Shown here one piece after another: positions 60,492-61,022 of a stretch of 64,000 nt of DNA. Both the position numbers and the translations under genes were made by a program. The DNA lies in IMG/VR virus record IMGVR_UViG_3300042399_001709, positions 16,784 to 80,783 of that record; one strand, given 5' to 3'. Each line of letters begins with the position of its first letter. Position 1 is the stretch's first letter. Source of the DNA: a virus. The notes beneath the pieces were generated by a model. The model was given only the letters and a program-made list of their open reading frames with translations, ran no database searches and was not told the DNA's origin.

Positions 60492-61022
60492 GTCGGGAGC
60501 AATCCTAGGAGAAGCTACCGACTAGGTGAGAGTGTTAGGAACAAAGCACGCAGCCAAATAAATGCGAAGTGGTTCAGGCGAGTGATGGGCTCTAATCGCT
60601 GCTGTAAATGCGGGAGAGCAAGATTGTAAGTGGAAGCCGGAAGGTTTAGGCCAATACCGGCGGAAGCGAATAGTCTACTGAAACTTTTGGGGGCGACGGC
60701 TCCTGAAGGTTTCAGGACATAAGGCCGGTGAGCTACCGGTCTGGGAGTCAGGCCTTCGGGCTTGACTCCCTTATTCTTATGTTGTAGTCTTGTATTCCGT
60801 TCCGGGTAGAGGCCGGATAGTTGGCAGATAGACGAACTGCCCGAGACGATAAGGCCACCGAGCTTGGGTCTAACCAACAGGGGTGTCGGTGGCAGCAACC
60901 AGGCGAGAGCCGATGTTGCCTCTGCTGTCCATAGTGGTAAGGCAGGGATAAGCGTCAATACCGCGAAAGGGTTTGGGGGGTGTCGCAACTTGGGAGTGGT
61001 TCCCCTAGGCGACTCCCCCCTT
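60492..61022 (+). ncRNA. putative large structured noncoding RNA (about 530 nt)
   Basis: No + strand ORF of 60 aa or more in a gene-dense region; many helices with G:U pairs; C(UUCG)G and GNRA tetraloops; own promoter. Confidence 0.7.

What the first reader, a model, noticed from the sequence alone, without database searches (positions are those of the whole stretch)
60492..61022. Large, highly structured phage noncoding RNA (about 530 nt) with its own promoter
Seen: between a terminator and the next gene promoter lies a region with no sense-strand ORF that is almost fully foldable: 5' GTCGG/CCGAC (60492-60522) enclosing GGA-GCAA-TCC; a 16-bp stem with four G:U pairs (60679-60714); a multibranch closed by ACATAAG/CTTATGT (60717-60782) holding GCCGGT/ACCGGT and a 12-bp stem with C(UUCG)G (60743-60770); TCCGG/CCGGA; GGCAG/CTGCC; GCCACCGA/TCGGTGGC (60854-60893); GCAAC..GGC-GAGA-GCC..GTTGC; and a terminal GGGGG..GTCGC/GCGAC.CCCCC stem. 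UUCG and GNRA loops and G:U pairs support the + strand RNA. Established: phages carry large ncRNAs of unclear function (GOLLD, ROOL). I see no group I/II intron, RNase P or tmRNA hallmark and no adjacent RT or nuclease gene. Inference: a novel or divergent large ncRNA expressed early.
Basis: partly seen in the sequence, partly recalled or inferred. Interest (0 to 1): 0.88.

Follow-up and report, generated by a model that had tools for sequence, protein, structure and literature searches.

The report
Two fused novel phage RNAs
This gene-free stretch of an uncultured freshwater phage encodes real, folded, expressed non-coding RNA, but it is two independent RNA modules of about 225 bases each joined by a spacer, neither matches a catalogued RNA family, and their function is still unknown.

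Summary
Window 60492-61022 has no conserved ORF. It folds far better than shuffles on the + strand (z -5.98). All 16 related phage contigs found through the neighbouring radC gene carry it. It shows heavy compensatory base-pair change. Contigs from lake, freshwater and river RNA libraries cover it. No Rfam 15 family matches.

It is not one large RNA class. It is made of three parts:
- d5 (60492-60716). Elsewhere this is a self-contained small-RNA gene with its own promoter and a hairpin plus U-rich tail.
- A 75-80-nt spacer, present only in some lineages.
- d3 (60797-61022). Elsewhere this stands alone, a few bases behind stop codons at the ends of, or inside, early operons.

In other phages d5 and d3 lie kilobases apart, convergent, or fused without the spacer.

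Function is not shown. My best guess is that they are stable trans-acting RNAs that bind a protein during early infection. A cis role in antitermination or 3'-end protection for d3 is the main rival.

This scan reached the same two-fused-RNAs reading earlier on two other genomes (e1-5890530, e1-6035419). I reached it independently before seeing those notes.

The parts
60314..60349 (+). Intrinsic terminator of the preceding radC unit (10-bp G+C stem plus a T run)
   Evidence: terminator scan.
60368..60414 (+). Inter-cassette spacer box (TATTCA, then C-tracts with a 7-nt period). It precedes the RNA promoter.
   Evidence: family D1: 3 copies in the window, each after a terminator. Noted earlier as e1-6142409.
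60457..60485 (+). Promoter of the RNA unit: -35 TTGACT at 60457-60462, a 17-nt spacer, TG-n-GAAACT with the -10 at 60480-60485. The start is inferred near 60492.
   Evidence: Conserved in 12 of 12 homologues. Equivalent promoters precede 4 of 4 stand-alone d5 copies. Coordinates. The consensus scan does not list it. No transcription start site was mapped.
60492..60716 (+). Module d5. Helices: P1 60492-60495 with 60519-60522, enclosing a GNRA hairpin; 60549-60552 with 60563-60566; 60589-60593 with 60615-60619, plus an inner stem and a loop carrying UGUA; 60636-60639 with 60658-60661; a 17-bp terminal hairpin 60678-60715 with an invariant GCGACGGCT apex.
   Evidence: Alignment A2 of 17 distinct sequences. 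97.7% of cells are paired against 37-51% when partners are slid, and 15 of 37 pairs change on both sides. Coordinates.
60717..60796 (+). Lineage-specific spacer module with GCCGGT/ACCGGT and a 12-bp C(UUCG)G stem at 60743-60770, followed by TTATTCTTAT (terminator-like).
   Evidence: Absent from L012-L015, L067 and L083, where d5 and d3 abut (gap 0-1 nt). Terminator-like. Its stems never vary among the 8 carriers in A1, so covariation is uninformative.
60797..61022 (+). Module d3. Helices: hairpins 60801-60805 with 60813-60817 and 60823-60827 with 60837-60841; an invariant closing helix GACG 60845-60848 with CGTC 60953-60956, flanked by ATAAG on both strands; a variable arm 60854-60893; 60895-60900 with 60914-60919, capped by a GNRA loop; 60920-60923 with 60944-60947; a small hairpin 60961-60970; a terminal hairpin 60975-61020.
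   Evidence: Alignment A3 of 37 distinct sequences. 96.6% of cells are paired against 35-49% slid, 22 of 32 pairs change on both sides, and 0 of 500 shuffles reach the observed score. Coordinates.
61028..61056 (+). Promoter of the next operon (TTGACG, 17 nt, TAGTGT). It starts 8 nt after the d3 terminal hairpin and is followed by a conserved leader hairpin and Shine-Dalgarno sequence.
   Evidence: Repeated at 62240-62318 and 63215-63293. Conserved in the fused homologues.

Best explanation
Window 60492-61022 is a + strand, promoter-driven, non-coding transcription unit. It strings together two independently evolving structured RNA modules with a lineage-specific spacer between them.

The modules:
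- d5 (60492-60716) is elsewhere a complete small-RNA gene. It has its own sigma-70-type promoter and several covarying helices. It ends in a long hairpin with an invariant GCGACGGCU apex followed by a U-rich tail.
- d3 (60797-61022) is elsewhere found alone, 2-9 nt behind the stop codon of unrelated small early genes. It is a multi-helix junction closed by an invariant GACG/CGUC helix with AUAAG on both strands, and it ends in a long hairpin.

Most likely mechanism (inferred, about 45% of my belief):
- Each module folds on its own into a compact, nuclease-resistant RNA that accumulates well above the neighbouring mRNAs.
- Each acts in trans through its invariant junction and loop nucleotides by binding a host or phage protein, as a decoy or scaffold during host takeover.
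- Fusion simply co-produces the two.

Shown: the fold, the covariation, the lack of coding, the modularity, and cover by contigs of RNA libraries.
Inferred: the transcription start, early timing, trans action, and a protein ligand.
For: Homologues. All 16 loci found through radC carry the region at 73-99.9% identity. Pattern scans added 6 viral and 45 metagenome contigs.

Covariation made on MAFFT alignments not fitted to structure:
- d3: 22 of 32 pairs change on both sides, 96.6% paired against 35-49% slid.
- d5: 15 of 37 pairs change on both sides, 97.7% paired against 37-51% slid.
- Many G-U pairs appear among the pair types, which fits the + strand RNA.

Modularity across 78 held stretches, many of which are the same contig fetched twice:
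- Fused with a 70-74-nt spacer: 27.
- Fused with a 0-1-nt gap: 10.
- Same strand, 1.0-3.1 kb apart: 4.
- Convergent, 112 nt apart: 3.
- d3 with no d5 in the DNA held: 34.

Stand-alone d5 has its own promoter and a U-rich tail in 4 of 4 copies, and again in L041 and L061.

The apexes of both terminal hairpins are conserved in sequence while the stems covary. GCGACGGCT is invariant in 17 of 17 d5. GTGGT is present in 28 of 37 d3.

RNA libraries. Eighteen RNA runs from up to 18 studies hold 14-25% of the sampled words of 59700-61500, about the share the RNA makes up. Of the 4 runs laid:
- X1 has a contig over 60516-60973.
- X16 has a contig over 60508-60964.
- X12 has contigs over 60508-60719 and 60722-60921.
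- These have depths of 10-39, with little or no flank cover in the same runs.
- In X12 and X16 the contigs carry sequencing-adapter letters at 60508 and 60964. The orientation puts the first mate on the - strand, that is RNA on the + strand in the usual stranded library (recognising the adapters is from my recall).
Against: - No ligand, target or phenotype is known, so trans action is inference only.
- d3 has no promoter of its own in most contexts and sits directly before terminators, which also fits a cis role.
- Contig depth cannot measure expression, and DNA carry-over cannot be excluded. One laid run, X3, also covers the flanks at depth 2.5-6.
- The sharp ends at 60508 and 60964 differ from the predicted start (about 60492) and end (about 61022). 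They could be processing sites, reverse-transcriptase stops or assembly breaks.
- GGA motifs are not enriched, so there is no CsrA-sponge signature.
- There is no conserved d5-d3 complementarity.
- The host is unknown. TerL is at most 27% identical to any isolated phage.
Confidence: 0.5

Rival explanations
1. d3, and in this phage the whole unit, is a cis-acting transcript element. One form is a put/nut-like RNA that modifies RNA polymerase so that it reads through downstream terminators. The other is a 3'-end or intercistronic structure that protects early mRNAs.
For: - d3 lies 2-9 nt after stop codons of unrelated genes and immediately before a hairpin. That hairpin carries a strong U tail in 13 of 37 distinct copies. 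This resembles the order cro-nutR-tR1 in lambda (recalled).
- In four lineages d3 is intercistronic, followed by a Shine-Dalgarno sequence and a gene.
- In all 12 fused rows of A3 the terminal hairpin has lost its U tail and runs straight into the next operon.
- The loop of that hairpin is conserved in 28 of 37 copies, as a protein or polymerase contact would be.
Against: - d5 is a complete gene with a promoter and terminator and no downstream cistron.
- Every cassette downstream has its own conserved promoter, so read-through is not needed.
- A core of about 170 nt with an invariant junction is far larger than nut or put sites (sizes recalled).
- In this window the unit has no ORF to protect.
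Confidence: 0.2
2. The fused transcript works as one large ornate RNA, possibly an RNA-only multimer as shown for GOLLD, ROOL and OLE. The stand-alone copies are its subunits. This is a 'Rosetta stone' fusion.
For: - d5 and d3 recur together in four different arrangements.
- RNA-library contigs bridge d5, the spacer and d3 (X1 and X16).
- Phage-borne orphan RNAs have been found to self-assemble. I saw the abstracts of bioRxiv 10.1101/2024.12.08.627333 and 10.64898/2026.07.01.735769.
Against: - d3 occurs without d5 within 4 kb or more on both sides in L037/L072, L048 and L063, and in a 57-kb record that is 66% complete.
- No conserved complementarity links the modules: 1 antiparallel 5-mer against 2 in the parallel control.
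- There is no Rfam match and no tRNA neighbours.
Confidence: 0.12
3. d3 is a ligand-sensing riboswitch whose terminal hairpin is the expression platform.
For: - It has invariant junction nucleotides and a following terminator-like hairpin.
- In some lineages a gene follows within about 85 nt.
Against: - It usually sits at the end of an operon, with a new promoter after it.
- The downstream genes are not of a consistent kind.
- By eye I found no mutually exclusive pairing of more than 4-5 bp between the aptamer and the terminator.
- No Rfam riboswitch matches.
Confidence: 0.05
4. One module is a self-cleaving or otherwise catalytic RNA that processes early transcripts.
For: - The number of invariant junction nucleotides is ribozyme-like.
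- It lies between cistrons in phages, as many small ribozymes do (recalled).
- RNA contig ends at 60508 and 60964 recur, or carry adapters, in runs from different studies.
Against: - No known ribozyme family matches.
- The recurrent ends lie in hairpin loops near the ends of the unit, where library artefacts are expected.
- Contigs cannot define RNA ends.
Confidence: 0.06
5. The region is not an RNA gene. It is either the antisense ORF 60515-60988 or a DNA-level element such as an origin or a single-strand promoter.
For: - A 157-aa antisense ORF exists in the window.
- Repeat boxes flank the unit.
Against: - The ORF is broken in relatives by 1-nt and 14-nt indels. The longest open antisense frame is at most 76 codons in 4 of 12.
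- Substitutions are compensatory in stems and include G-U pairs specific to the + strand.
- Contigs of RNA libraries cover it.
Confidence: 0.02

Closest known systems
GOLLD, ROOL and OLE (large ornate orphan RNAs; GOLLD and ROOL are linked to phages and prophages)
   Same: - Phage-borne, elaborately folded, non-coding and abundant.
- No known function.
- A size comparable to ROOL when the modules are fused (about 530 nt).
   Different: - No covariance-model match, even at E<=10.
- No neighbouring tRNA genes.
- It is a concatenation of two modules of about 225 nt that occur apart.
- Multimerisation was not tested.
Phage and prophage trans-acting small RNAs with their own promoter and intrinsic terminator. 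One example is StxS, made by early termination at the Shiga-toxin phage late promoter (PMC7547250, abstract seen).
   Same: Stand-alone d5 is a promoter-to-terminator unit with no ORF.
   Different: - d5 is about 225 nt with at least five covarying helices and an invariant terminator apex. This is more complex than typical base-pairing sRNAs.
- No seed or target has been identified.
nut (lambda) and put (HK022) antitermination RNAs, and 3'-UTR-derived sRNAs
   Same: d3 lies just after a small early gene and just before a terminator.
   Different: - Its core is several times larger.
- Neighbouring cassettes have their own promoters.
- No boxA/boxB-like motif is recognised.
- This comparison rests on recalled features, not on a test.
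Candidate structured RNAs catalogued from IMG/VR (Fremin, Bhatt and Kyrpides 2023, PMC10690425; I read the abstract and section 2.1)
   Same: The same data source and the same kind of evidence (covariation in intergenic regions of uncultured phages).
   Different: - That catalogue holds motifs of 29-151 nt with no function assigned.

Membership tests
GOLLD / ROOL / OLE / raiA / HEARO (Rfam large ncRNAs) | Match to the family covariance model at or near its gathering score | tested here: not met
   There are 0 matches at gathering in the 64-kb window and in 10 related loci. At E<=10 on 60250-61150 there are 11 weak matches, none to these families. The best is blv_FSE at 20.2 bits against 34, on the - strand.
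GOLLD / ROOL | Frequent adjacency to tRNA genes in phage or prophage DNA (recalled feature) | tested here: not met
   ARAGORN finds 0 tRNA or tmRNA genes in the window.
GOLLD / ROOL / OLE | RNA-only homo-oligomer | not testable with these tools
   This needs SEC, native gels or cryo-EM. The only indirect test found no conserved inter-module complementarity.
Stand-alone bacterial or phage small-RNA gene | Own promoter, no conserved ORF, and an intrinsic terminator | tested here: met
   This holds for d5. Conserved -35 and -10 boxes and a hairpin with a U-rich tail are present in 4 of 4 separate copies and in L041 and L061. No ORF is conserved. In the window itself the U tail is missing and the RNA continues into the spacer and d3.
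Stand-alone bacterial or phage small-RNA gene | Detected as a discrete transcript | tested here: inconclusive
   RNA-library contigs cover 60508-60973 in 3 of the 4 runs laid, with little flank cover in those runs. Contigs cannot prove ends, strand or level. The adapter junctions give only a hint.
Riboswitch | Lies in the 5' leader of a consistent class of regulated genes, with an expression platform that competes with the aptamer | tested here: not met
   d3 mostly follows stop codons at operon ends. Downstream genes are absent or unrelated. I saw no convincing alternative pairing, but that was by inspection only.
Known self-cleaving ribozymes, group I/II introns, RNase P, tmRNA | Match to the family covariance model | tested here: not met
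IMG/VR csRNA catalogue (PMC10690425) | Overlap with a listed DNAVirus_X motif | not testable with these tools

The most novel reading that the evidence does not exclude
d5 and d3 are two subunits of a single RNA machine, either an RNA-only assembly or a bipartite catalytic or ligand-binding RNA. Phages can encode it as separate genes, as convergent neighbours, or as one fused transcript. That would make this a 'Rosetta-stone' fusion at the RNA level, used in the early takeover of freshwater bacteria.
Probability: 0.15. Interest if true: 0.85.

Novelty: new member of a known kind. Interest (0 to 1): 0.55.

Why it matters
Two well-supported, uncatalogued structured RNA classes are carried by a widespread group of uncultured freshwater phages. 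They were found in 18 lake, freshwater and river RNA runs. They add to the short list of complex phage RNAs with no known role.

They are good targets for structure work for three reasons:
- Their modular use (separate, convergent or fused).
- The sequence-invariant apexes of their terminal hairpins.
- The invariant junction of d3.

Suitable approaches include cryo-EM, probing and pull-downs. They could also help answer what phages use large folded RNAs for.

The finding also corrects the picture of a single 530-nt RNA.

Tried and rejected
- **Rfam.** Gathering threshold on the window and on 10 divergent loci gave 0 matches. The E-value mode on 60250-61150 and on 10 small loci gave only sub-threshold noise. 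The one recurring item was ctRNA_pGA1, at 29.9 and 23.3 bits against a gathering score of 45. It fell on the terminal hairpin and U tail of d3 in 2 of 10 loci. I read this as generic hairpin-terminator likeness.
- **Isolated phages.** blastn of 60350-61100 found no match. TerL by tblastn reached at most 27% identity. The host therefore stays unknown.
- **Bacterial genomes.**
  - The d3 two-block pattern gave 0 matches in genome contigs.
Zero of the 120 match the d5 or d3 profile by nhmmer at E<=1. They are chance matches to a pattern that was too loose.
  - No prophage or host was found, and absence is not shown.
- **CsrA/Rsm-type sponge idea.** GGA, AGGA, GGAG and AAGG are not enriched over dinucleotide shuffles in d5, the spacer, d3 or the whole unit. 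Rejected.
- **Base pairing between d5 and d3.** Across 14 matched genome pairs there was 1 conserved antiparallel 5-mer against 2 in the parallel control, and none at 6-7 nt. No support.
- **Obligate protein partner.** The small 'WYQIHTNG' gene sits next to d3 in many relatives. It has no tblastn match at E<1 in the window's own genome and no Pfam or PHROG family.
- **Obligate co-occurrence of d5 with d3.** A d5 pattern and a blastn search of two further records found none: G001 (57 kb, 66% complete) and G002 (37 kb, 43% complete). Both records are incomplete, so this is weak.
- **Extra tertiary pairs in d3.** An all-against-all column scan recovered the known helices and the variable arm. It also found one possible loop-loop pair (alignment columns 26 and 49), which may be a phylogenetic effect. 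I make no claim on it.
- **RNA levels.**
  - In X12 the depth is 38.9 over d5 against 2.6 over the spacer and d3. This could mean d5 accumulates separately, but a mix of strains breaking the assembly at the variable spacer explains it equally well.
  - Parts of the flanks without cover in X1, X12 and X16 are not evidence of silence.
- **Covariance models.** I did not build any. The two alignments (272 and 295 columns) were likely to exceed the calibration time limit, and nhmmer profiles already recovered the family.
- **Literature.**
  - Three full-text searches did not turn up a description of these RNAs. This is not proof that none exists.
  - I read the abstract and section 2.1 of PMC10690425.
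  - I read the abstract and outline of 10.64898/2026.07.01.735769.
  - All other papers I saw only as search listings and abstract openings.

Full report
**Where it lies.** The window is bases 16784-80783 of an 80,783-bp linear IMG/VR virus record estimated 92% complete. The record is a tailed phage.
- It has a large terminase (PHROG 38, E 2e-63).
- It has a 4,464-aa ORF with a weak tape-measure match.
- Its terminase is at most 27% identical to that of any isolated phage, so lineage and host are unknown.

The finding sits in a run of small + strand genes near the right end. These are organised as cassettes of terminator, repeat box, promoter, leader hairpin and genes. The upstream gene (59773-60270) is a RadC-like JAB protein (Pfam E 9e-28). 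It ends in a strong terminator at 60314-60349.

**The observation.**
- The + strand of 60480-61030 folds to -232.9 kcal/mol against -193.9 +/- 6.5 for shuffles (z -5.98). The - strand gives z -3.16.
- No sense ORF exceeds 55 aa.
- The 157-aa antisense ORF is not conserved. Among 12 distinct homologues the longest open antisense frame is 168 codons in the window, 120-138 in seven close relatives, and at most 76 in four. Indels of 1 nt and 14 nt break it.

**Known families.**
- Rfam 15 gives nothing at gathering score in the whole window or in 10 related loci.
- Nothing is meaningful at E<=10 over the region or at E<=5 over 10 further loci.
- There are no tRNA or tmRNA genes in the window.

**Homologues and structure.** All 16 viral contigs recovered through the RadC protein carry the region at 73-99.9% nucleotide identity.
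- Contigs whose RadC is only 78% identical in protein have the RNA at 93.5% identity, so the RNA is exchanged as its own unit.
- Exact-pattern scans added further viral contigs and 45 metagenome contigs.
- MAFFT alignments that were not fitted to any structure show abundant compensatory change.
  - 3' module (37 distinct sequences): 96.6% of 1,180 cells form standard pairs, against 35-49% when partners are slid by 1-3 columns. 22 of 32 pairs change on both sides. 0 of 500 shuffles reach the observed covariation score.
  - 5' module (17 distinct sequences): 97.7% paired against 37-51% slid, and 15 of 37 pairs change on both sides.
- Caveat: the structures tested were derived from RNAalifold on the same alignments, which favours them over the slid controls. 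The number of different pair types per position is nonetheless large.

**It is modular.** Profile searches show three parts.
- d5 (60492-60716).
  - In L057, L066, L073 and L084 it lies 1.0-3.1 kb from d3. Each of these copies has TTGAC(A/G), then 17-18 nt, then GATACT or TATTCT upstream.
  - Each ends in the long hairpin followed by a U-rich tail, after which the next cassette's promoter follows.
  - A more divergent d5 lies convergent with d3, 112 nt away, in L041, L042 and L061. There the hairpin is followed by seven U.
  - The apex of the hairpin, GCGACGGCT, is invariant in 17 of 17 while its stem covaries at 10 of 17 pairs.
- d3 (60797-61022).
  - It is found without d5 in 34 of 78 held stretches, many with short flanks. 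In L037/L072, L048 and L063 there are 4 kb or more on both sides.
  - It begins 2-9 nt after the stop codon of unrelated small genes. It is followed either by a terminator with a strong U tail (13 of 37 distinct copies) or by a hairpin, a Shine-Dalgarno sequence and the next gene.
  - Its core is a junction closed by an invariant GACG/CGTC helix with ATAAG on both sides. Invariant single-stranded stretches lie between covarying hairpins.
  - The terminal-hairpin loop carries GTGGT in 28 of 37.
- Spacer (60717-60796).
  - It is missing where d5 and d3 abut (L012-L015, L067, L083).
  - It contains a terminator-like 12-bp UUCG stem.
  - Its stems do not vary among carriers, so covariation says nothing about it.

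In all 12 fused rows of the d3 alignment the U tail after d3 is replaced by the -35 box of the next promoter.

**Expression.** Eighteen RNA runs (lake, freshwater and river metatranscriptomes, up to 18 studies) hold 14-25% of the sampled words of 59700-61500. That is about the share the RNA makes up. Results for the four runs laid:

| Run | Contigs over the unit | Depth | Flank cover |
|---|---|---|---|
| X1 | 60516-60973 | 10.4 | One 151-nt contig at depth 2.3 |
| X16 | 60508-60964 | 36.8 | One 59-nt piece with 8 mismatches |
| X12 | 60508-60719 and 60722-60921 | 38.9 and 2.6 | None |
| X3 | Variants of the RNA | 6-11 | Flanks at 2.5-6 |

- In X12 the contig is preceded at 60508 by letters that I recognise (from recall) as the end of an Illumina adapter. 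In X16 the contig is followed at 60964 by such letters.
- The two orientations agree and put the first mate on the - strand. In the usual stranded protocol this means a + strand RNA.
- These are contigs, so level, ends and strand are hints only, and DNA carry-over is not excluded.
- The ends 60508 and 60964 lie in hairpin loops 16 nt inside the predicted start and before the terminal hairpin. They may be processing sites or library artefacts.

**How it may work.** Nothing tested here shows a function.
- Features pointing to trans action:
  - d5 is a complete gene.
  - Both modules keep invariant unpaired nucleotides and hairpin apexes.
  - Both appear to be stable.
  - Both are exchanged as cassettes in the early, host-takeover region.
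- These features point to trans-acting RNAs with a specific macromolecular ligand. I give this about 45%.
- The placement of d3 directly behind genes and before terminators keeps a cis role open, either antitermination or 3'-end protection. I give this about 20%.
- The recurrent linkage of d5 and d3 in four arrangements suggests a shared process, possibly a two-part RNA machine or assembly. I found no conserved complementarity between them.
- A CsrA-type sponge is not supported.

**Novelty.**
- Neither module is in Rfam 15.
- Three literature searches found no description.
- A 2023 catalogue of 8,495 short candidate motifs from IMG/VR (PMC10690425) might list fragments of them. Its supplements could not be opened.
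- This scan had already reported the same pair of fused RNAs on two other phage genomes (e1-5890530, e1-6035419). I reached the modular reading, before reading those notes, and it agrees with them.
- New here, as far as those short notes show:
  - The spacer-bearing variant.
  - The convergent arrangement.
  - The invariant hairpin apexes.
  - The RNA-library contigs with adapter junctions.

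Noticed in passing
window 1841-15235 (+), then 15239-20611 and 20611-23601: A 4,464-aa ORF with only a weak tape-measure match (Pfam TMP_3, 32 bits, below the cut-off of 41). It is followed by 1,790-aa and 996-aa ORFs with no PHROG family. 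If it is a tape measure, the tail would be exceptionally long.
   Followed up: partly
window 60368-60414, 63130-63176, 63839-63885; L037 9380-9480 (- strand): Each early cassette's terminator is followed by a box of 7-nt-period repeats. In the window these are C-tracts (CCCCATA-like). In relatives there are 7-9 copies of GTTATGN right after the d3 terminator. Their function is unknown. They may be cassette-exchange or regulator sites.
   Followed up: partly
window 61045-61096, 62272-62318, 63247-63293: A repeated promoter and leader block: GGGTGTAGTGT at the -10, a short hairpin, then GGCGTAG(T/A)AGGAAGGA as the ribosome-binding region. It is shared by successive early operons.
   Followed up: no
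L037 9698-9925 (-), and homologues in L036, L040, L048, L049, L055, L061, L063, L071, L073 and others: A conserved 76-83-aa protein (motif WYQIHTNG..TTFAR.YEG) lies immediately upstream of stand-alone d3 in many relatives. It has no Pfam or PHROG family and is not encoded in the window's own genome.
   Followed up: partly
L041 1600-1900 and L061 760-1070: A divergent d5 copy lies convergent with d3, 112 nt apart. A short palindromic hairpin lies between the two U-rich tails, forming a tail-to-tail RNA gene pair.
   Followed up: partly
L037, L040, L048, L059 and L062, 60-140 nt downstream of the d3 terminator: Inverted repeats of the form TGGCAC-N5-GTGCCA (one to two copies) precede the next cassette. 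They look like operator sites for a dimeric regulator (text shown).
   Followed up: no
window 60420-60436; L073 and L084 upstream of d5: An AT-rich palindrome (GTTAAG..CTTAAC-like) lies about 25-35 nt upstream of the -35 box of the d5 promoter in the window and in stand-alone copies.
   Followed up: no
window 63938-64000: Another TTGACT promoter with a leader hairpin (TCGGG-GCTT-CCCGA) is cut off by the end of the record, so at least one more early cassette is missing.
   Followed up: no
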